A stretch of 11,441 nucleotides of DNA from a virus. The notes beneath the pieces were generated by a model. It had not been told where the DNA came from. It ran no database searches and saw only the letters and a program-made list of their open reading frames with translations. The position numbers and the translations under genes are program-made. The stretch's first letter is position 1, and each line of letters opens with the position of its first letter. Location of the stretch: the UHGV virus genome UHGV-0368337, one strand, 5' to 3'. Shown here piece after piece: positions 4,011 through 11,354 of this stretch.

Positions 4011-4307
4011 ATGTCACAAACAAGTTACAGCAAACTGTCACAGCGCGATATCGATCGCGCTGAAACGGATTTACTTATCAACCTGTCAGCTCTGACGCAA
4101 AGGGGACTGGCGAAGATGATTGGCTGCCATGAATCGAAGGTCAGTCGTACCGACTGGCGATACATCGCGGCGATTTTATGCGCGTTCCAGATGGCATCTG
4201 ATATCAGTCCGATCAGCCGGGCTTTCCAGCATGCCATTAACGTTCATGCAAATAAAAAACGTCCGGTTGGGGCCGGACGTTCTGAGCAAATCCTGATGAA
4301 CATCTGA
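4011..4307 (+). CDS. cII: CII-family transcriptional activator
   Basis: 98 aa. C-terminal ...NKKRPVGAGRSEQILMNI parallels lambda CII ...NKKRPAATERSEQIQMEF; HTH region in the middle; AGGAAA RBS. Position between cro/nutR and the replication genes is as in lambda. Confidence 0.8.
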   Translation: MSQTSYSKLSQRDIDRAETDLLINLSALTQRGLAKMIGCHESKVSRTDWRYIAAILCAFQMASDISPISRAFQHAINVHANKKRPVGAGRSEQILMNI

Positions 4308-4470: not shown

Positions 4471-5553
4471 ATGCGTAATTACGCAACAATTTCACCTCAG
4501 TTCTGGTTAGGCGATACAGGGCGAAAACTAAGGAAGTCTGGTCCGGAAAGTATGGTAGTGGCGTTGTATATGATGACCTCGCCTCATTCCAATATGCTGG
4601 GCCTTTATTACCTGCCTGTTTTGTACATTGCTCACGAAACCGGACTTGATCCTGAAGGGGCTTCTAAGGGGCTTCAAATGGCTTGCGAGGCTGGTTTTTG
4701 CAGCTATGACCATGATTCTGAGGTTGTATGGGTGCATGAAATGGCAGCATGGCAGGTTGGTGAATCGCTGAAACCTGGCGATAACCGTTGTGCTGGGGTA
4801 AGAAATGAATATTCCGCGTTGCTGGAAAATCCTTTTTTATCATCCTTTTATGATAGATATAAGGATGATTTCCACCTGGATGTCAGACGTGAATCATGTC
4901 GGAAAATTGAAGCCCCTTCAGAGCCCCTTTCAAGCCAAGAACAGGAACAGGAACAAGAACAGGAAAGGGATAAAACCCTTCTGGTCCATGGCGAAAAAAT
5001 CGCCACGGACCCACAGGGGGATTTTTGTCCTGTTCTGACTGAACGTCCAGGACCAGCGGGCACGACACCGGAAGCAGATTCCGGGCGTTGTGTGCAGCAG
5101 GTGCTGATCGTCGAACCGGAGCAACAACGCCAACCGCAGCAGCCTGAAGCCGATTCCGCGATGAGCGGGAAGCCGATTGGGTTAACCCGGGCGATGCCGG
5201 GACCGTCTGCGGGACGAGTTGATTATCCTGACGTGTTCGAACGGGTCTGGCGTGAATATCCGCATCGGGCAGGGTCAAACCCGAAGAAATCCGCGTTCAA
5301 TGCCTGGAGGGCCAGATTACGCGAAGGGGTGTCACCGGATGTCGTGCTGGATGGCGTGAGGCGTTACGCAAGATACCTGGAGGCTACCGGGAAAGCGGGA
5401 ACTGAATTTGTTCAGCAGGCATCGACGTTTTTTGGCCCGAACAGGAATTTCGAAAATCCGTGGTCGCTGCCGAAGGCTGGCGCAGTCAGCCTGCGTTGCG
5501 TGAATCACATTTCTGAACCGGACACCGAAATTCCGCCGGGTTTCAGGGGGTAA
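4471..5553 (+). CDS. phage replication initiation protein (O-like/YdaU-like), with QEQEQEQE linker
   Basis: 360 aa; GAGGGG RBS. Immediately upstream of, and stop-start coupled to, the DnaC-like gene. Acidic/Gln-rich interdomain linker; C-terminal F-E-R-V-W-R-E-Y-P...A-F-N-A-W segment. Function inferred mainly from position. Confidence 0.7.
   Translation: MRNYATISPQFWLGDTGRKLRKSGPESMVVALYMMTSPHSNMLGLYYLPVLYIAHETGLDPEGASKGLQMACEAGFCSYDHDSEVVWVHEMAAWQVGESLKPGDNRCAGVRNEYSALLENPFLSSFYDRYKDDFHLDVRRESCRKIEAPSEPLSSQEQEQEQEQERDKTLLVHGEKIATDPQGDFCPVLTERPGPAGTTPEADSGRCVQQVLIVEPEQQRQPQQPEADSAMSGKPIGLTRAMPGPSAGRVDYPDVFERVWREYPHRAGSNPKKSAFNAWRARLREGVSPDVVLDGVRRYARYLEATGKAGTEFVQQASTFFGPNRNFENPWSLPKAGAVSLRCVNHISEPDTEIPPGFRG
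4937..5036. other. candidate replication origin inside the O-like gene
   Basis: Four tandem hexamers GAACAG/GAACAA (4939..4962), A-tract hairpin GGCGAAAAAATCGCC (4990..5004), and TCCTGTTCT (5028..5036), which is the reverse complement of AGAACAGGA in the repeats. Location parallels lambda ori inside O. Confidence 0.3.
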
Positions 5554-5559
5554 TCAGCC

Positions 5560-6300
5560 ATGAAAAACATTTCGACTGGAGGGATTCTTGAACGGGTGCG
5601 CCGTCTGGCACCACCGCACGTGGCAGCACCGTTCCGGACGACCGACGAATGGCGGGAATGGCAACTGGCTGAGGGCCGTAAGCGCAGCGAGGAAATTAAC
5701 CGCCTGAATCATCAGGCGCGGGTTGAAAAAATCCTGAACCGTGCGGGCATCCAGCCGCTTCACAGGAAGTGCTCATTCGGGAACTACCGGGTGCAGAACG
5801 ACGGTCAGCGCCATGCTCTGAGCCAGGCGAAATCCATTGTCGATGAATTGATGACCAGTTATACAAACTTCGTGTTCAGCGGGAATCCGGGAACCGGAAA
5901 AAATCATCTGGCGGCGGCTGTGGGTAATCGTCTGCTGAAGGCCGGTAAATCCGTGATAGTGGTCACCGTGGCGGATGTGATGAGCGCGTTACATGCCAGC
6001 TATGACGACGGACTGTCAGGGGAAAAATTTTTGCGTGAACTGTGCGAAGTGGACCTCCTGGTTCTTGACGAAATTGGCATCCAGCGTGAGACGAAAAACG
6101 AGCAGGTGGTACTGCACCAGATTGTTGACCGCCGGACGGCATCACTGCGCAGTGTCGGGATGCTGACAAACCTGAATCATGCCGCAATGAGCACGCTTCT
6201 TGGTGAGAGGATTATGGACCGGATGACCATGAACGGTGGTCGTTGGGTGAATTTTAACTGGGAGAGCTGGCGGTCAAACGTTGGACGTCAGGGTATGTGA
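5560..6300 (+). CDS. DnaC-like helicase loader / replication protein (P-analog, YdaV-like AAA+ ATPase)
   Basis: 246 aa. Walker A FSGNPGTGKNHLAAAVG and Walker B DLLVLDEIG, characteristic of DnaC/IstB-type loaders. AGGGGG RBS. Confidence 0.9.
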   Translation: MKNISTGGILERVRRLAPPHVAAPFRTTDEWREWQLAEGRKRSEEINRLNHQARVEKILNRAGIQPLHRKCSFGNYRVQNDGQRHALSQAKSIVDELMTSYTNFVFSGNPGTGKNHLAAAVGNRLLKAGKSVIVVTVADVMSALHASYDDGLSGEKFLRELCEVDLLVLDEIGIQRETKNEQVVLHQIVDRRTASLRSVGMLTNLNHAAMSTLLGERIMDRMTMNGGRWVNFNWESWRSNVGRQGM

Positions 6301-6325
6301 GAATTTTTGACGAGGTAAATTTTCG

Positions 6326-7096
6326 ATGGAAACCGTATTGCATGCACTGAAAGCGATGGGAAAAGCCAATTCTGTTGAACTGGCGGCGCGGCTTGATATC
6401 AGCCGTGAAGAAGTTCTCAACGAACTGTGGGAGCTCAAAAAAAATGGCGTTGTTGATAAAACGGGTCACACCTGGTTTCTGGCTGTCGAAGGTGAAGCCG
6501 GGGTAACCGAAGAGCGGCCAGTAAAATCTGAAACACAGGATATGCTGACCGAAGAGGTCGCTCCAAAAGTTAGCGCTGACATGATGATTGAGTTTATCTC
6601 TCAGGAGGGGGCTAAAACCTGTGAGGAACTGGCGGGGAAGTTCGGTGTCAGCACTCGTAAGGTTGCTTCCACGTTGGCGGTGGTAACAGCAGCGAGACGC
6701 CTGGTACGCGAGATCAGCAACGGAAAATTCCGTTACAAAATGCCTGATGTCGAAAACGGCGATTTGAGCGCCTTATCATCGCAGAATAAGCAATCACACC
6801 ATGACGCAGAAAACAGCGCGGCAGGCGATGAAATGAATCGTTTTCCGTTGGCATCAGAGAGCACGGCAAAGGCCAGTACAGATGAGTTTATCCGAGAAGT
6901 TCCATCATTCACCGAAAAATCTGCCAGTTCGGTGATGCTTCCATCGCTGCATGCTGCCAGTCGAGAACTTCGTCGCGCCAAAAAACAGGTCCAGAAGTGG
7001 GAGCGAGTCTGCGCCGCGCTGCGGGAGCTGAACAAGCACCGGGATATTGTTCGACAGATTGTCGATTCATCCGGTCGTATTGTGTCGGAAAAGTGA
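6326..7096 (+). CDS. hypothetical protein with two tandem winged-helix-like N-terminal segments
   Basis: 256 aa; GAGG RBS. Two similar segments (HALKAMGKANSVELAARLDISREEVLNELWELKKNGVVDK and IEFISQEGAKTCEELAGKFGVSTRKVASTLAVVTAARRLV) followed by a low-complexity acidic/Ser-rich tail and a basic coiled C-terminus. Function unknown. Confidence 0.65.
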   Translation: METVLHALKAMGKANSVELAARLDISREEVLNELWELKKNGVVDKTGHTWFLAVEGEAGVTEERPVKSETQDMLTEEVAPKVSADMMIEFISQEGAKTCEELAGKFGVSTRKVASTLAVVTAARRLVREISNGKFRYKMPDVENGDLSALSSQNKQSHHDAENSAAGDEMNRFPLASESTAKASTDEFIREVPSFTEKSASSVMLPSLHAASRELRRAKKQVQKWERVCAALRELNKHRDIVRQIVDSSGRIVSEK

Positions 7097-7111
7097 TTGC
7101 CGGAGGCGCTT

Positions 7112-7507
7112 ATGGCGAAACCTTTTACACACGAACAGCGGGAAGAACTGAAGGCACGAATTATCGGATTGGTACGCAAAAATGAACGCATGACGATATC
7201 GCAACTGGAGAGAGCGACGGGAGCAGGCTGGCATTCAGTCAGACGTTGCCTTGTGGATGTACTGGCTTGTGGCGATTTATACATGTCCGGTAAATACGGT
7301 GTTTTTGCATCAGAACAGGTGTATCGCGTATGGCGTAAGACACCGGAGAAAACAACTGACCAGACATTGATTCGAAAGTTACCAGACGGAGAAATTCGCC
7401 GCTACGATAGACGCCTGAACATAATCTGTCGCGAGTGCCGGAATAGTGAAGTTATGCAGCGCGTGCTGGCTTTCTATCAGGGGAATTTTCAGGAGGCGGT
7501 ACTGTGA
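7112..7507 (+). CDS. hypothetical protein (131 aa), possible winged-helix fold
   Basis: ORF track 7097..7507; preferred start ATG at 7112 with GGAGG 7 nt upstream. Stop overlaps the next ORF. No recognisable catalytic motif. Confidence 0.6.
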   Translation: MAKPFTHEQREELKARIIGLVRKNERMTISQLERATGAGWHSVRRCLVDVLACGDLYMSGKYGVFASEQVYRVWRKTPEKTTDQTLIRKLPDGEIRRYDRRLNIICRECRNSEVMQRVLAFYQGNFQEAVL

Positions 7508-7563
7508 GTAAATTAGCTATCAGGCTTCAATTGTCGCTGGCATTCGCATCAAAGGAGAATGAG

Positions 7564-8148
7564 ATGACCACTTTTACAAAAGAGCAGTTAATCAGTCATG
7601 TTAGTGAAAATGTAAAGGCGATGAAATTTGCAGTAAAACAGACAGCATTCAAAAATTCTCTCGAGGCAATTGAGTTGGATTTAGCACTGGCCCTTGTTGC
7701 TCAGGCTTCGCTGGAAGCAGAGCCCGTGCTTTATATGAATCGATTTACCGGAAAGACATTCTCACTGGAAGAGCAACCCGGTGCTGATAAGGAACCGGAA
7801 ATATACGTGCCGCTATATGCTGCCCCGCCAGACAGCGCCGCCATGCTTCAGGCTGGAAACTTTCGGGAAAAGAAGGGTTCGTCAACCAATAATTTTCGGG
7901 AAATCTCGGAAACGTCAACCAACCATCCGGTAACTCTGGATGGTTGGATAAGCTGTAGTGAGCGAATGCCGGATGACGGTCAGCACGTAATTATTTTATG
8001 TGATGGCGCATTCGTTCTTTATGCGCAATATCGAGACGGTGAGTTTTTTGATGTAGTCCGTGATGGTGATGAATTTTTCGAAACACAGAGCCGCAATGTA
8101 ACCGACTGGATGCCGCTACCAGAACCGCCGCAGGAGGTGCGCCAATGA
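7564..8148 (+). CDS. Ead/Ea22-like protein with DUF551-type C-terminus
   Basis: ORF track 7504..8148; preferred start ATG at 7564 (AGGAG 6 nt upstream); GTG at 7504 is an alternative. C-terminus ...WISCSERMPDDGQ...VTDWMPLPEPP matches the DUF551 signature as I remember it. Internal 32-bp tandem repeat at 7861..7925. Confidence 0.7.
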   Translation: MTTFTKEQLISHVSENVKAMKFAVKQTAFKNSLEAIELDLALALVAQASLEAEPVLYMNRFTGKTFSLEEQPGADKEPEIYVPLYAAPPDSAAMLQAGNFREKKGSSTNNFREISETSTNHPVTLDGWISCSERMPDDGQHVIILCDGAFVLYAQYRDGEFFDVVRDGDEFFETQSRNVTDWMPLPEPPQEVRQ

Positions 8149-8228
8149 ACTGGCCTGAAGCATTTGCAATTACAGGCGTTGCTATGGCTATCACTTTTTT
8201 AGTATATGTTATTTGTCGGTGGGGGTAA
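8145..8228 (+). CDS. small hydrophobic peptide (27 aa), putative single-pass membrane peptide
   Basis: ATG at 8145 overlaps the upstream stop (ATGA) with AGGAGG 6 nt upstream. MNWPEAFAITGVAMAITFLVYVICRWG. Below the ORF-track size cutoff. Confidence 0.4.
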   Translation: MNWPEAFAITGVAMAITFLVYVICRWG

Positions 8229-8263
8229 AAACGTTCGCCGGGATTAACACCAAAGGAGGGAAT

Positions 8264-8368
8264 ATGTCGGATGATATATCACTGGCAATGGAAGGTGCGC
8301 TGGCTGTTATTGCTGTTGTGGGCGTTTACTGCCTGGTTGTGTTTTTGATGGATCGACTAGGGAACTGA
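8264..8368 (+). CDS. small hydrophobic peptide (34 aa), putative single-pass membrane peptide
   Basis: ATG at 8264 preceded by AAAGGAGGG. MSDDISLAMEGALAVIAVVGVYCLVVFLMDRLGN. Below the ORF-track size cutoff. Confidence 0.4.
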   Translation: MSDDISLAMEGALAVIAVVGVYCLVVFLMDRLGN

Positions 8369-8377
8369 ATTCATTAC

Positions 8378-8399
8378 GATATGGGAATTCCCATATCGG
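8378..8399. repeat. perfect 22-bp palindrome CGATATGGGAATTCCCATATCG
   Basis: Sequence equals its own reverse complement. Lies between the second small peptide ORF and the candidate hok promoter; not followed by a U-tract on either strand. Confidence 0.85.
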
Positions 8400-8410
8400 G
8401 TAAAAACGGT

Positions 8411-8438
8411 TTGCGGTAAAGCGAGAGTTAAGTAGAAT
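8411..8438 (+). promoter_or_regulatory. candidate sigma-70 promoter of the hok-type transcript
   Basis: TTGCGG (8411..8416), 16 nt, TAGAAT (8433..8438). Would give a leader of about 170 nt containing the hairpin CTGTCTGCC...GGCAGACAG (8459..8493), as expected for hok-family mRNAs. Confidence 0.4.
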
Positions 8439-8499
8439 TGCTGCGGGTGCTTGAGGCTGTCTGCCTCGGGCATGCCACCGTAAGGCAGACAGAGAAAAG

Positions 8500-8565
8500 C
8501 CCCAGTTAACATTACGCGTCCTGCAAGACGCCTAACATTAATCTGAGGCCAATTTCATGCTAGAC
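8500..8565 (-). ncRNA. candidate Sok-like antisense RNA (hypothetical)
   Basis: Minus-strand promoter-like TTGCCT (rc of 8595..8600), 17 nt, TAACCT (rc of 8572..8577). The transcript would be antisense to the SD and start of the upstream in-frame ORF at 8557 and contain hairpin 8515..8530. No clean U-tract terminator. Confidence 0.25.
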
Positions 8566-8613
8566 ACATGTAGGTTAGCCTCTTACGCGCCGAAAGGCAA
8601 GGAGAAGCAGGCT

Positions 8614-8769
8614 ATGAAGCAGCAAAAGGCGATGTTAGTCGCCCTGATCGTCATCTGTATTACCGTCATTGTGACGGCACTGGTAACGAGGAAAGACCTC
8701 TGCGAGGTACGAATCCGAACCGGCCAGACGGAGGTCACTGTCTTCACAGCTTACGAACCTGAGGAGTAA
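8614..8769 (+). CDS. hok: Hok/Gef-family type I toxin (51 aa membrane peptide)
   Basis: MKQQKAMLVALIVICITVIVTALVTRKDLCEVRIRTGQTEVTVFTAYEPEE shows the Hok/Gef signature (TM helix, TRK-LCE-R-G-EVA-F-AYE). AAGGCAAGGAGAAG RBS. ORF track 8557..8769 includes an in-frame upstream start with its own GAGG. Confidence 0.85.
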   Translation: MKQQKAMLVALIVICITVIVTALVTRKDLCEVRIRTGQTEVTVFTAYEPEE

Positions 8770-10458: not shown

Positions 10459-10488
10459 TTGACAACGTCGCGTGTTCGGGGCTATATT
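10459..10488 (+). promoter_or_regulatory. near-consensus sigma-70 promoter (TTGACA, 18 nt, TATATT)
   Basis: TTGACA at 10459..10464 and TATATT at 10483..10488. Divergent from the higB-like start; faces the structured region and the ORF6N-like gene. Confidence 0.5.
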
Positions 10489-10494
10489 CCTCAC

Positions 10495-10569
10495 GCGCCA
10501 GCAAAACCTGGCGTCGGGATTAGCACCCCGGATATCGAAACGGTGCATAACCGCGCTGGCGGTTTTTTT
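10495..10569 (+). ncRNA. candidate small RNA or transcriptional attenuator (about 75 nt)
   Basis: Starts about 7 nt after the promoter -10. Hairpins CGCCAG-CAAAAC-CTGGCG and GCACC...GGTGC, then terminator-like CCGC-GCTG-GCGG plus T7 (10551..10569). About 165 nt of further structured sequence precedes the next gene. Confidence 0.3.
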
Positions 10570-10733
10570 ATGCGCTAAGCACAGTCACATTCGCGATTTA
10601 TGGCGGGCTGTGTGGGGGAGCCGAAAGGCTCGCCGGATGTTTCGACCGGTAGTGCTAACCCCGCACAGTTCGCCACCACGATGATTAGCACCTGACGGTG
10701 GCGAGGTAAAAATTATCGAAACGCGAGGTCATT

Positions 10734-11354
10734 ATGGCTGTTCAAATTTCTGTCGAAAACCTTTCCCCTGTTACCTATAACCAGATCCCCGTAATTACTA
10801 CTGAACTGTTGGCTCACCTTTACGGAACAAAAATCAAAAACATTTCTGATAACTTTCTGAACAACACGACGCGATTCATGCCCGGAAAGCATTACTTTAA
10901 AATTGAAAAAAACGAATTACGCGAGTTTAAGAACAGACCCGAAACAATCGGGTTAGTTGGTAAAAATGCCCGCTCCCTCATCCTCTGGACAGAACGCGGC
11001 GCAGCCCGTCACGCAAAAATGCTCGAAACCGATCGGGCGTGGGAGGTATTCGAAAAACTGGAAGACTGCTATTTCAGCCAGGGAAAAACAGCACCAACCG
11101 AACAGCAGCCGCAGATTCAGCCACAATTCACAGCCGAAGAAATCATCCTCCTTTGCTACATGCAGCTCTGGATGGAAAAAGCCCAGGACATCAGCAAACA
11201 CCTGTATCCCATTATGAAAGAGCTGAACTCCTCATACACGAACAAGCTGTATGACATTGCGTTTGAGACCATCTACATGGTGACGAAGAACAGAGACGCG
11301 CTACTAAGGAAGGTGCGAATAAGCAGGTCATTTCTTCCCAAGCTGACTCGCTGA
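10734..11354 (+). CDS. ORF6N/KilA-N-like DNA-binding domain protein (phage regulatory or antirepressor-like)
   Basis: 206 aa; GAGG 6 nt upstream. N-terminal region (VTYNQIPVITTELLAHLYG...LILWTERGAARHAKMLETDRAWEVFEKLEDCYF) resembles ORF6N/KilA-N-type phage domains; C-terminal half is Gln/Pro-linked and unassigned. Confidence 0.7.
   Translation: MAVQISVENLSPVTYNQIPVITTELLAHLYGTKIKNISDNFLNNTTRFMPGKHYFKIEKNELREFKNRPETIGLVGKNARSLILWTERGAARHAKMLETDRAWEVFEKLEDCYFSQGKTAPTEQQPQIQPQFTAEEIILLCYMQLWMEKAQDISKHLYPIMKELNSSYTNKLYDIAFETIYMVTKNRDALLRKVRISRSFLPKLTR

What the first reader, a model, noticed from the sequence alone, without database searches (positions are those of the whole stretch)
6326..8148. 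Three-gene block of unknown function between replication genes and the toxin island
Directly after the DnaC-like gene are a 256-aa protein with two tandem winged-helix-like segments and a disordered tail, a 131-aa protein overlapping it, and a 194-aa Ead/Ea22-like protein with a DUF551-type C-terminus (coupled GTGA/ATGA junctions). None has a catalytic motif I can recognise. This is the slot where other lambdoid phages place ren/nin functions or host-takeover and exclusion genes, so it is the most likely place for an undescribed function.
Basis: partly seen in the sequence, partly recalled or inferred. Interest (0 to 1): 0.5.

Follow-up and report, generated by a model that had tools for sequence, protein, structure and literature searches.

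The report
YdaW–Ren pair plus swappable DUF551 gene
The three genes are real but already catalogued prophage genes: a conserved pair (a YdaW-type double winged-helix protein and a long relative of phage lambda's Ren protein) that always follows the phage replication genes, then one interchangeable "cargo" gene with a DUF551 domain. None has a tested function in this prophage.

Summary
The window is a Rac-like lambdoid prophage, 99.9–100% identical over 5560–8600 to one in E. coli O104:H4. The three ORFs exist with the stated lengths (256, 131 and 194 aa) and match RefSeq calls.

- **Gene 1** is a YdaW/DUF1627 protein: two winged helices, a hypervariable disordered segment and a conserved C-terminal helix.
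- **Gene 2** is a DUF977 protein and a full-length homologue of lambda Ren. It shares PHROG 142 and the invariant C-terminal ECRxSxxMxRVLA motif.
- **Gene 3** has a DUF551 C-terminus, but its N-terminus is not Ead/Ea22-like.

The block is not one unit. In 78 of 79 informative viral contigs, a Ren-like gene starts about 15 nt after YdaW. The pair sits directly behind either a DnaC-type or a lambda-P-type loader. Short lambda-type Ren never has YdaW (0 of 69).

The slot after the pair is hypervariable. Gene 3 fills it in 14 of 75 loci.

My best reading is that genes 1–2 are a non-essential accessory of the initiator–loader replication module. They probably act like Ren, protecting phage replication from Rex-type exclusion. 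This is an inference and was not tested here. Gene 3 is mobile cargo.

The families are known and the functions are not, so interest is modest.

The parts
5560..6300 (+). DnaC-type helicase loader gene (context). The YdaW–Ren pair follows it directly, after a 25-nt gap.
   Evidence: NCBIfam PRK12377 1.1e-146; Pfam IstB_IS21 5.7e-20. RefSeq names it 'ATP-binding protein'.
6326..7096 (+). Gene 1: YdaW-family protein (DUF1627), 256 aa. Layout: wHTH1 (res 1-50), linker, wHTH2 (res 84-140), hypervariable disordered segment (res 141-200), conserved long C-terminal helix (res 208-255).
   Evidence: Pfam DUF1627 7.8e-48; phrog_630 2e-115. AF2 model. Alignments A1/A2. Foldseek finds only generic MarR/ArsR/ScpB-type winged helices.
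6746..6925 (+). Hypervariable, predicted-disordered segment of gene 1 (res 141-200). Unrelated alleles occur in sister phages.
   Evidence: pLDDT below 50. Only 17-28% identity to the window in most sister loci, while the flanking domains stay at 73-100%.
7112..7507 (+). Gene 2: long-form Ren homologue (DUF977), 131 aa. It has an N-terminal winged helix (res 7-76) and a C-terminal motif N-x-I-C-x-ECRxSxxMQRVLAFY (res 103-122) that is near-invariant and shared with lambda Ren.
7489..7563 (+). Module junction. A conserved CAGGAGG-N7-GTGA coupling site lies at the 3' end of gene 2, followed by a 57-nt spacer that is probably non-coding and carries the Shine-Dalgarno (AAGGAG) of gene 3.
   Evidence: In sister loci the GTG is the true start of DUF4406 genes (26 loci) or methyltransferase genes (5 loci). 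The spacer is shared with loci that carry a different (Zn-ribbon) gene, and there it has frame-breaking 1-nt indels (sequence).
7564..8148 (+). Gene 3: cargo gene, 194 aa. It has an N-terminal domain of unknown type (phrog_660/5117), a low-complexity linker and a C-terminal DUF551 domain (res about 127-190, nt 7942-8133).
   Evidence: Pfam DUF551 1.1e-20; phrog_60 5.8e-44. No Ead_Ea22 hit. No similarity to lambda Ea22. An identical protein is seen on more than 1000 contigs. It directly follows the Ren-like gene in 14 of 75 sister loci.
8145..8228 (+). Unannotated 27-codon hydrophobic ORF whose ATG overlaps the stop of gene 3 (ATGA). It lies outside the finding but explains the 'ATGA junction'.
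   Evidence: Sequence. tblastn shows 56-100% identity in many sister loci. Not annotated in NC_018658.

Best explanation
The block has two parts with different histories.

**Genes 1 and 2.** These are a conserved two-gene accessory at the 3' end of the lambdoid initiator–helicase-loader replication module, transcribed with it in the early rightward operon. Gene 2 is a long-form member of the lambda Ren family. Gene 1 (YdaW/DUF1627) is a tandem winged-helix protein whose second winged helix is related to that of Ren. It accompanies only the long Ren form.

The most likely function is inferred by analogy with lambda Ren and was not tested here. The two proteins would be non-essential winged-helix adaptors that bind the phage replication complex or its DNA. 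That binding would keep replication from being aborted by Rex-type exclusion or abortive-infection systems of resident prophages. The rapidly changing parts, namely the recognition-helix region of gene 2 and the disordered segment of gene 1, would be the surfaces exposed to that conflict.

**Gene 3.** This is a separate, mobile cargo gene in the hypervariable slot behind the pair. It has an oligomerising or unknown N-terminal domain and a portable DUF551 domain. That domain is also carried by early-region proteins such as P22 EaA, some Stx-phage Ea22 variants and YfdS. Its function is unknown; most likely it modulates a host or phage process early in infection.

**Shown:** gene identity, family membership, domain layout, synteny and mosaicism.
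**Inferred:** co-transcription, any protein–protein or DNA binding, and the anti-exclusion role.
For: **Identity**
- Pfam, PHROG and NCBIfam hits.
- Pairwise and multiple alignment with lambda Ren, including the invariant ECRxSxxMxRVLA motif.
- hhalign matches the Ren-like wHTH to YdaW wHTH2 with probability 91% and E=1.2e-6.

**Linkage**
- In 78 of 79 IMG/VR loci with downstream sequence, a DUF977 gene starts about 15 nt after YdaW.
- The gene upstream of YdaW is DnaC-type in 51 of the 88 viral and genome loci where one was called. It is lambda-P-type (PF06992, 5.2e-16) in 32. The pair therefore travels with the replication slot, not with one loader family.
- In a distant metagenome-assembled genome (locus L006) the order is loader, then Ren-like (phrog_142, 3.4e-11), then YdaW.
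- Lambda-type 96-aa Ren is always arranged P, ren, ninB, without YdaW (69 of 69 loci).

**Operon context**
- All genes are on the same strand, with gaps of 25 and 15 nt.
- Promoter-like and terminator-like sites occur only at the rate seen in shuffled sequence.

**Functional leads from the literature**
- Lambda ren mutants grow poorly on Rex+ lysogens, and suppressors map in O and P.
- RexA and RexB interact with O and Ren in two-hybrid assays.
- The truncated K-12 YdaW was a blocker of the retron-Sen2 toxin RcaT in an overexpression screen (10.1101/2020.06.22.160242).

**Arms-race-like variation**
- The gene 2 recognition-helix region is 25-45% identical between alleles, while its C-terminus is 72-93% identical.
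- The gene 1 segment 141-200 is 17-28% identical, while its winged helices are 77-100% identical.

**Cargo status of gene 3**
- There are 31 distinct junction sequences and at least 10 unrelated genes after the Ren-like gene. They include DUF4406, true Ead_Ea22 (PF13935), QueH, a methyltransferase and a Zn-ribbon protein.
Against: - No experiment exists for these proteins.
- Lambda Ren itself has no known mechanism, and gene 2 is only 29% identical to it.
- Lambda Ren does not reach Pfam DUF977 at E<=1, so the link rests on PHROG 142, BLASTP and the shared motif.
- No rexAB-like gene was seen in the window, so the target of any anti-exclusion activity is unknown.
- The YdaW retron result comes from overexpressing a truncated K-12 pseudogene product in a screen.
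- PADLOC gives nothing for genes 2 and 3, and only generic wHTH hits for gene 1. PADLOC models defence proteins rather than counter-defence proteins, so this says little either way.
- YdaW and Ren-like alleles reassort freely. That gives no sign of co-evolving contact surfaces.
- More distant YdaW homologues in Serratia, E. ruysiae and other loci lack a detectable Ren-like neighbour.
- The winged-helix fold fits a plain transcription factor equally well.
Confidence: 0.5

Rival explanations
1. Genes 1 and 2 are ordinary sequence-specific transcription regulators, for example of the downstream nin/toxin region or of host genes. Their position next to the replication genes would have no functional meaning.
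For: - Both have confident winged-helix domains.
- The closest folds are MarR/ArsR/IscR-type repressors.
- HTH profile hits.
- YdaW is listed among E. coli putative transcription factors of unknown function (PMC9308461).
- Allelic variation in the recognition helix of gene 2 could reflect different operator specificities, as with immunity repressors.
Against: - No operator-like repeats or dedicated promoter were found.
- The position directly behind two unrelated loader families is fixed, and lambda shows the same arrangement.
- The genetic link of lambda ren to O, P and Rex, rather than to transcription.
- Many winged helices, such as ScpB, cullin WHB and Z-alpha, bind proteins or unusual nucleic acids. 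These also appear among the fold hits.
Confidence: 0.2
2. Genes 1 and 2 are true replication factors with no defence-related role. They might assist origin loading, membrane tethering, or the switch from theta to rolling-circle replication.
For: - Strict linkage to the initiator–loader module irrespective of loader type.
- Statements from the literature that all initiator–helicase-loader phages carry ren, that Ren is 'likely involved in DNA replication', and that suppressors of ren map in O and P.
Against: - Per, lambda ren mutants are reported to grow poorly only on Rex+ lysogens. That lambda ren is otherwise dispensable is from my own recollection of the classical literature, not from a paper read here.
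- K-12 Rac and some related prophages lack an intact pair.
- High allelic turnover is unusual for core replication proteins.
Confidence: 0.2
3. All three genes act together as one functional cassette. It could be, for example, a host-takeover or superinfection-exclusion system.
For: - Same strand and close spacing.
- A strong Shine-Dalgarno plus GTGA coupling site at the end of gene 2.
- The exact three-gene arrangement recurs: it is in 14 of 75 sister loci, and 381 complete E. coli genomes carry at least 80% of the loader-plus-block stretch 5560-8600.
Against: - Gene 3 is replaced by at least 10 unrelated genes at the same junction, while genes 1-2 stay.
- Gene 3 homologues in other phages mostly lie in the early-left (ea/exo-xis) region on the other strand.
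- Gene 3 is nearly invariant (at least 97% identity in the top 120 clusters), while genes 1-2 are highly mosaic. This points to separate histories.
Confidence: 0.07

Closest known systems
Bacteriophage lambda Ren (NP_040633; PHROG 142 'Ren-like exclusion protein')
   Same: - Gene 2 matches the same PHROG over its full length (9.6e-46, against 1.6e-41 for lambda Ren).
- It shares the N-terminal winged helix and the invariant C-terminal N..ECRxSxxMxRVLA.Y motif.
- It lies in the same early rightward operon, behind the replication loader and ahead of ninB.
   Different: - It is 131 aa against 96 aa, with a roughly 10-aa N-terminal extension and a roughly 30-aa insert containing the conserved LPDGEIRRYDR.
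- It is only 29% identical to lambda Ren.
- It belongs to Pfam DUF977, which lambda Ren does not reach.
- It is separated from the loader by YdaW, which lambda-type loci never have.
- The loader here is DnaC-type, not P.
- Rex-related function is untested.
YdaW of the E. coli K-12 Rac prophage (DUF1627, PF07789; PHROG 630)
   Same: - Same family and same position after the DnaC-like ydaV gene.
- Same two N-terminal winged helices: the K-12-type loci match window residues 1-140 at 54% identity.
   Different: - The K-12 copy is truncated at about residue 165 by the Rac deletion. It lacks the variable segment, the C-terminal helix and the Ren-like neighbour.
- The window copy is full length.
- The only functional datum, a retron-Sen2 RcaT blocker in a screen, concerns the truncated K-12 form.
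LygF / DUF977 proteins of Rac-like and Stx phages (for example Shigella phage POCJ13, phage Rac-SA53)
   Same: Gene 2 is a member of this family. In these phages the neighbouring genes are annotated 'YdaW family / DUF1627' followed by 'LygF / DUF977 / Ren-like exclusion protein', in the same order.
   Different: - DNA identity to the best deposited phage records is only about 87% and stops after the first 60 nt of gene 2 (query 1-837).
- The wHTH allele differs.
- No function is attached to the name LygF.
DUF551 (PF04448) early-region proteins: P22 EaA, Stx-phage Ea22 variant V2, CPS-53 YfdS
   Same: Gene 3 shares the roughly 65-aa C-terminal DUF551 domain. The literature describes DUF551 as a portable domain of unknown function (PMC10834534, PMC4776307).
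   Different: - The N-terminal 129 aa are not Ead/Ea22-like.
- The gene sits in the nin-side slot on the rightward strand rather than in the exo-xis/ea region.
- The solved lambda Ea22 C-terminal domain is a different domain.
- No solved structure matches gene 3 by sequence.

Membership tests
Lambda Ren family (PHROG 142) | Full-length match to the family profile that also contains lambda Ren | tested here: met
   Gene 2 scores 9.6e-46 over profile positions 1-115 of 116. Lambda Ren scores 1.6e-41 over positions 11-110 of 116.
Lambda Ren family (PHROG 142) | Direct sequence similarity to lambda Ren, including the conserved C-terminal motif | tested here: met
   BLASTP E=3e-7 at 29% identity. 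N103, E108, C109, R110, S112, M115 and R117-A120 are invariant in alignment A5, which includes lambda Ren.
Lambda Ren family (PHROG 142) | Gene lies in the early rightward operon immediately after the replication loader gene | tested here: inconclusive
   The operon and side are the same, but YdaW is interposed between the loader and gene 2. Lambda-type loci have P followed directly by ren.
Lambda Ren family (PHROG 142) | Confers escape from Rex (RexAB) exclusion and interacts with RexA/RexB | not testable with these tools
   Known only for lambda Ren, from the literature. Needs genetics or two-hybrid assays.
Pfam DUF977 (PF06163) | Score above the gathering threshold over the whole model | tested here: met
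   222.5 bits against a cutoff of 22.1, covering profile positions 1-134 of 134.
Pfam DUF1627 (PF07789) / YdaW family | Score above the gathering threshold, plus the family architecture wHTH–wHTH–variable linker–C-terminal helix | tested here: met
   162.6 bits against a cutoff of 28.1. The architecture is conserved down to about 25% identity in alignment A2. AF2 model.
Ead/Ea22-like family (PF13935) | N-terminal and coiled-coil region matching the Ead_Ea22 profile or lambda Ea22 | tested here: not met
   Gene 3 residues 1-129 give no Pfam hit at E<=1. BLASTP against lambda Ea22 gives E=1.4. By contrast, a protein found just downstream of the pair in sister loci does hit PF13935 at 9.5e-12.
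Ead/Ea22-like family (PF13935) | Location in the exo-xis (early-left) region | tested here: not met
   Gene 3 lies on the rightward strand between the replication genes and hok.
Pfam DUF551 (PF04448) | Score above the gathering threshold over the whole model | tested here: met
   74.7 bits against a cutoff of 22, covering profile positions 1-68 of 68 at the C-terminus.
Known anti-phage defence systems (PADLOC-DB) | Match to any defence-system protein model | tested here: not met
   No hit for genes 2 and 3. Gene 1 gives only weak hits through its generic wHTH (Csa3/CasR HTH parts; best E 5e-6).

The most novel reading that the evidence does not exclude
YdaW and the long-form Ren act as a two-protein complex that travels with the initiator–loader module and works as a broad counter-defence. 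In this reading they mask the phage replication complex, or directly bind sensors or toxins of abortive-infection systems such as Rex-like systems and retron RcaT-type toxins. The hypervariable YdaW linker and the variable Ren recognition helix would be the specificity determinants, swapped by recombination. The conserved GTGA junction behind the pair would serve as a docking site where further early accessory or anti-defence cargo genes are exchanged. If so, the 45-year-old question of what Ren does would become testable in a richer natural allele series.
Probability: 0.2. Interest if true: 0.6.

Novelty: new member of a known kind. Interest (0 to 1): 0.3.

Why it matters
Ren is one of the last lambda early genes without a mechanism. 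Its only phenotype concerns the classical Rex exclusion system. This analysis shows three things:
- The Rac/Stx-type prophages of pathogenic E. coli, including O104:H4, carry a longer Ren form.
- That form is almost always paired with a second winged-helix protein (YdaW).
- Both proteins carry sharply localised hypervariable segments.

Together these give a natural allele series and a clear two-gene target for deletion, complementation and interaction experiments. The observation that the 3' end of the Ren-like gene is a fixed coupling junction, where unrelated cargo genes are exchanged, is useful for prophage annotation. It helps with start-codon choice for gene 3 and its relatives, and with finding accessory genes.

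The sequences and families themselves are not new.

Tried and rejected
1. **Polyubiquitin hit to gene 3.** The whole-sequence E of 1e-6 is inflated by the repeated target. Each ubiquitin unit scores about 7 bits (independent E of 26-79), and the match lies in the low-complexity linker. Rejected as chance.
2. **Sequence search of PDB for all three proteins.** No informative relative was found. MntR matched the wHTH of gene 1 only at E=0.045.
4. **PADLOC.** No defence-system membership.
5. **Rfam and the promoter/terminator scan.** No RNA family and no above-chance signal inside 6326-8148.
6. **The search for related loci with the divergent alignment A2.** It failed because no stretch was conserved enough. 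The repeat with A3 in genome contigs returned only 10 loci because the patterns were strict.
7. **Structure prediction for gene 3.** Not run. The listed homologues are all at least 97% identical, so the alignment would have had no depth. The two prediction jobs went to genes 1 and 2.
8. **Co-variation between YdaW and Ren-like alleles, or with loader type.** Alleles reassort freely. There is only a slight wHTH1 difference between DnaC-type (98%) and P-type (92%) loci, which linkage can explain.
9. **Literature on 'LygF'.** The name has no functional literature in the library.
10. **The antisense ORF 6733-7284 (183 aa, minus strand).** I regard it as spurious because it lies entirely inside genes 1-2. 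It was not scanned against any library.
Full report
**What is there.** The window is part of a Rac-like lambdoid prophage. Bases 5560-8600 are 100% identical to E. coli AST198 and 99.9% identical to the O104:H4 outbreak strains. Of 5426 complete E. coli genomes, 381 carry at least 80% of this stretch, and 4875 carry some part of it.

The layout, is:
- cI-like repressor (minus strand), then cro and cII;
- an O-like initiator (4471-5553) and a DnaC-type loader (5560-6300);
- the three genes of the finding;
- two small hydrophobic ORFs;
- sok/hok, a Doc-family toxin module and a RelE/HTH pair;
- a c4/isrK antisense RNA with an ORF6N antirepressor-like gene;
- in the O104:H4 copy, ninB, ninE, rusA, ninH and Q.

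They are 6326-7096 (256 aa, 'DUF1627 domain-containing protein'), 7112-7507 (131 aa, 'DUF977 family protein') and 7564-8148 (194 aa, 'DUF551 domain-containing protein').

**Checking the observation.** The ORFs and lengths are right, and the family matches are far beyond chance: DUF1627 7.8e-48, DUF977 2.1e-66, DUF551 1.1e-20. Several details need correcting.
- Gene 2 does not overlap gene 1. There is a 15-nt spacer with a GGAGG Shine-Dalgarno before ATG 7112.
- A GTGA does sit at 7504-7507, preceded by AGGAGG, but the 194-aa gene 3 starts at ATG 7564 with its own AAGGAG.
- Comparison of 75 sister loci shows that CAGGAGG-N7-GTGA is a conserved coupling junction at the end of the Ren-like gene. 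In other phages the GTG is the true start of a DUF4406 gene (26 loci) or a methyltransferase gene (5 loci).
- The 57-nt stretch that follows the junction in the window is shared with loci carrying a different (Zn-ribbon) gene. In four of those (L028, L035, L054, L091) it has 1-nt indels that break the frame. I therefore read it as a non-coding spacer and accept ATG 7564. Many automatic gene calls use the 214-aa GTG form.
- The ATGA at 8145-8148 links gene 3 to an unannotated 27-codon hydrophobic ORF.

**Gene 1.** It is a YdaW-family protein.
- The AF2 model gives two winged helices (res 1-50, pLDDT about 80; res 84-140, pLDDT about 89), two disordered stretches (50-79 and 144-199), and a long C-terminal helix (208-255, pLDDT 86-90). 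The 'disordered tail' is therefore really a disordered segment followed by a conserved helix.
- Alignments show the winged helices and the helix are conserved, with motifs IPxFT and P...E(I/L)RR(T/A)K...L. Residues 141-200 exist as unrelated alleles.
- The family is small. Only 158 clusters at 50% identity match among 1.84 billion representatives.
- The named genome loci are Enterobacterales (Escherichia, Salmonella, Serratia, Citrobacter), plus two records labelled only 'Proteobacteria bacterium' and 'Bacterium BS0013'.
- The family is highly diversified within E. coli, with 2169 clusters at 90% identity.
- Fold search returns only generic MarR/ArsR winged helices and tandem-winged-helix proteins such as ScpB.

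**Gene 2.** It is a homologue of lambda Ren.
- Gene 2 and lambda Ren both match PHROG 142 ('Ren-like exclusion protein') over their full length, at 9.6e-46 and 1.6e-41.
- BLASTP between them gives E=3e-7.
- The multiple alignment shows an invariant C-terminal motif N..ECRxSxxMxRVLA.Y.
- Lambda Ren itself does not reach Pfam DUF977. Gene 2 therefore belongs to a longer subfamily of 130-141 aa, with an extra conserved block LPDGEIRRYDR.
- Among homologues the recognition-helix region (res 36-55) occurs in several alleles only 25-45% identical. The C-terminal third stays 72-93% identical.
- The Ren-like winged helix aligns best with the second winged helix of YdaW (hhalign probability 91%, E=1.2e-6).

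**Gene 3.** The C-terminal roughly 65 aa are a DUF551 domain.
- The N-terminal 129 aa match only PHROGs of unknown function (660, 5117, 60) and give no Pfam hit, including Ead_Ea22.
- BLASTP against lambda Ea22 is negative, at E=1.4. The 'Ead/Ea22-like' label is therefore not supported.
- What it shares with P22 EaA and some Stx-phage Ea22 variants is the portable DUF551 domain.
- In other phages most relatives lie in the early-left region on the opposite strand.
- The protein is nearly invariant and very common. An identical sequence is on more than 1000 contigs, and the top 120 clusters are at least 97% identical.

**Synteny: the main result.** I fetched 80 IMG/VR loci and 10 species-level genome loci around YdaW homologues and searched them with the window's proteins.
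- In 78 of the 79 viral loci with downstream sequence, a DUF977/Ren-like gene starts about 15 nt after YdaW. The exception is L065.
- Across the 88 loci (viral and genome) where an upstream gene could be called, it is a DnaC-type loader in 51. In 32 it is a different loader that matches Pfam Phage_lambda_P at 5.2e-16.
- In one distant metagenome-assembled genome (L006) the order is loader, Ren-like (phrog_142, 3.4e-11), YdaW.
- All 69 informative loci around lambda-type 96-aa Ren are P, ren, ninB, with no YdaW.
- The long Ren form and YdaW therefore make up a conserved pair attached to the 3' end of the replication module, whichever loader it uses.
- Some more distant YdaW loci lack a detectable Ren-like gene (Serratia, E. 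ruysiae, an unclassified bacterium). K-12 Rac has a YdaW truncated at about residue 165 by the Rac deletion.
- Behind the pair the sequence is hypervariable, with 31 distinct junction sequences among 75 loci. Alternative genes there include DUF4406, gene 3 (14 loci), a Zn-ribbon protein, QueH, a methyltransferase and others. A true Ead_Ea22 protein (PF13935, 9.5e-12) lies just beyond, after the DUF4406 gene in the L056-type loci.
- Gene 3 is thus interchangeable cargo, not part of a fixed three-gene unit.

**How it most likely works.** Nothing in the sequence gives a mechanism directly, and there is no catalytic domain. The best lead is what is known for lambda Ren.
- Heteroimmune lambda phages that are mutant for ren grow poorly in Rex+ lysogens. 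Suppressors map in O and P.
- RexB–Ren (yeast two-hybrid) and RexA/RexB–Ren and –O (bacterial two-hybrid) interactions have been reported.
- Separately, K-12 YdaW, which is the two winged helices only, was among the prophage genes that blocked the retron-Sen2 toxin RcaT in an overexpression screen (10.1101/2020.06.22.160242).

Combined with the strict linkage to the replication module and the localised hypervariability, this leads to my proposal. Genes 1-2 would be early, non-essential winged-helix adaptors acting on the phage replication complex or its DNA. They would protect phage replication from Rex-type exclusion or abortive infection. This is inference. Equally simple rivals are a plain transcription-factor role and a pure replication role, and I give each about 0.2. 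For gene 3 I can only say that it is a mobile early accessory gene with a portable DUF551 domain.

**Comparison with the known, and novelty.** All three proteins are members of named families, and identical sequences are in RefSeq. Nothing here is a new kind of element. What may not be generally appreciated:
1. DUF977/'LygF' proteins are long-form Ren homologues that share Ren's C-terminal motif.
2. They are almost always paired with YdaW, whereas lambda-type Ren never is.
3. The pair follows both DnaC-type and P-type loaders.
4. The end of the Ren-like gene is a fixed translational-coupling junction at which unrelated cargo genes are exchanged.

I rate the finding as a new member of known kinds, of modest interest (0.3). 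The most novel reading not excluded is a two-protein counter-defence complex with swappable specificity segments. I give it a probability of about 0.2 and an interest of 0.6 if true.

Noticed in passing
window 8145-8228 (+): Unannotated 27-codon hydrophobic ORF (MNWPEAFAITGVAMAITFLVYVICRWG) whose ATG overlaps the stop of gene 3. tblastn shows 56-100% identity in many sister loci, always between the cargo slot and hok. RefSeq does not annotate it. It may be a small membrane protein.
   Followed up: partly
window 8264-8368 (+): Second small hydrophobic ORF (34 aa), annotated only as hypothetical (WP_001278450). It co-occurs with the 27-codon ORF upstream of sok/hok.
   Followed up: no
window 8445-8769 (+): Complete hok/sok type I toxin–antitoxin locus. 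The Rfam sok match at 8445-8619 scores 116.9 bits, and hokD lies at 8614-8769.
   Followed up: partly
window 10482-11354 (+): P1-type c4 antisense-RNA immunity cassette inside a lambdoid nin region. Rfam matches c4-a1b1, isrK and C4 at 10482-10680. They are followed by an ORF6N + P22_AR_C antirepressor-like gene at 10734-11354.
   Followed up: partly
window 7489-7507 and sister loci L056, L036 and others: Conserved CAGGAGG-N7-GTGA at the 3' end of the Ren-like gene. In sister phages it serves as the real overlapping start of unrelated downstream genes (DUF4406, methyltransferase). It marks a recombination and coupling junction for cargo exchange.
   Followed up: yes
L005:7004-9073 (E. ruysiae Rac-like prophage): A 689-aa protein (phrog_13260, 1.5e-141) with a P-loop-like GRRGTGKS motif sits directly after a full-length YdaW, where the Ren-like gene normally is. 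Its function is unknown, and it could be a defence-type ATPase.
   Followed up: no
protein P0304 (database, 204 aa): A single database protein with both DUF1627 and DUF977 Pfam hits. It is probably a frameshift or read-through fusion of the adjacent genes rather than a natural fusion.
   Followed up: no
window 4256-4283 (-): Strong terminator-like hairpin (11 pairs followed by a T run) on the minus strand inside the cII-like gene. From my own knowledge of lambda, its position resembles the terminator of the oop antisense RNA.
   Followed up: no
window 7729-7930 (gene 3 residues 56-122): Weak similarity to ubiquitin (TGKTFSLEEQP against TGKTITLEVEP). Repeats in polyubiquitin entries inflate it to E=1e-6, while per-unit E-values are 26-79, so I judge it chance.
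   Followed up: yes
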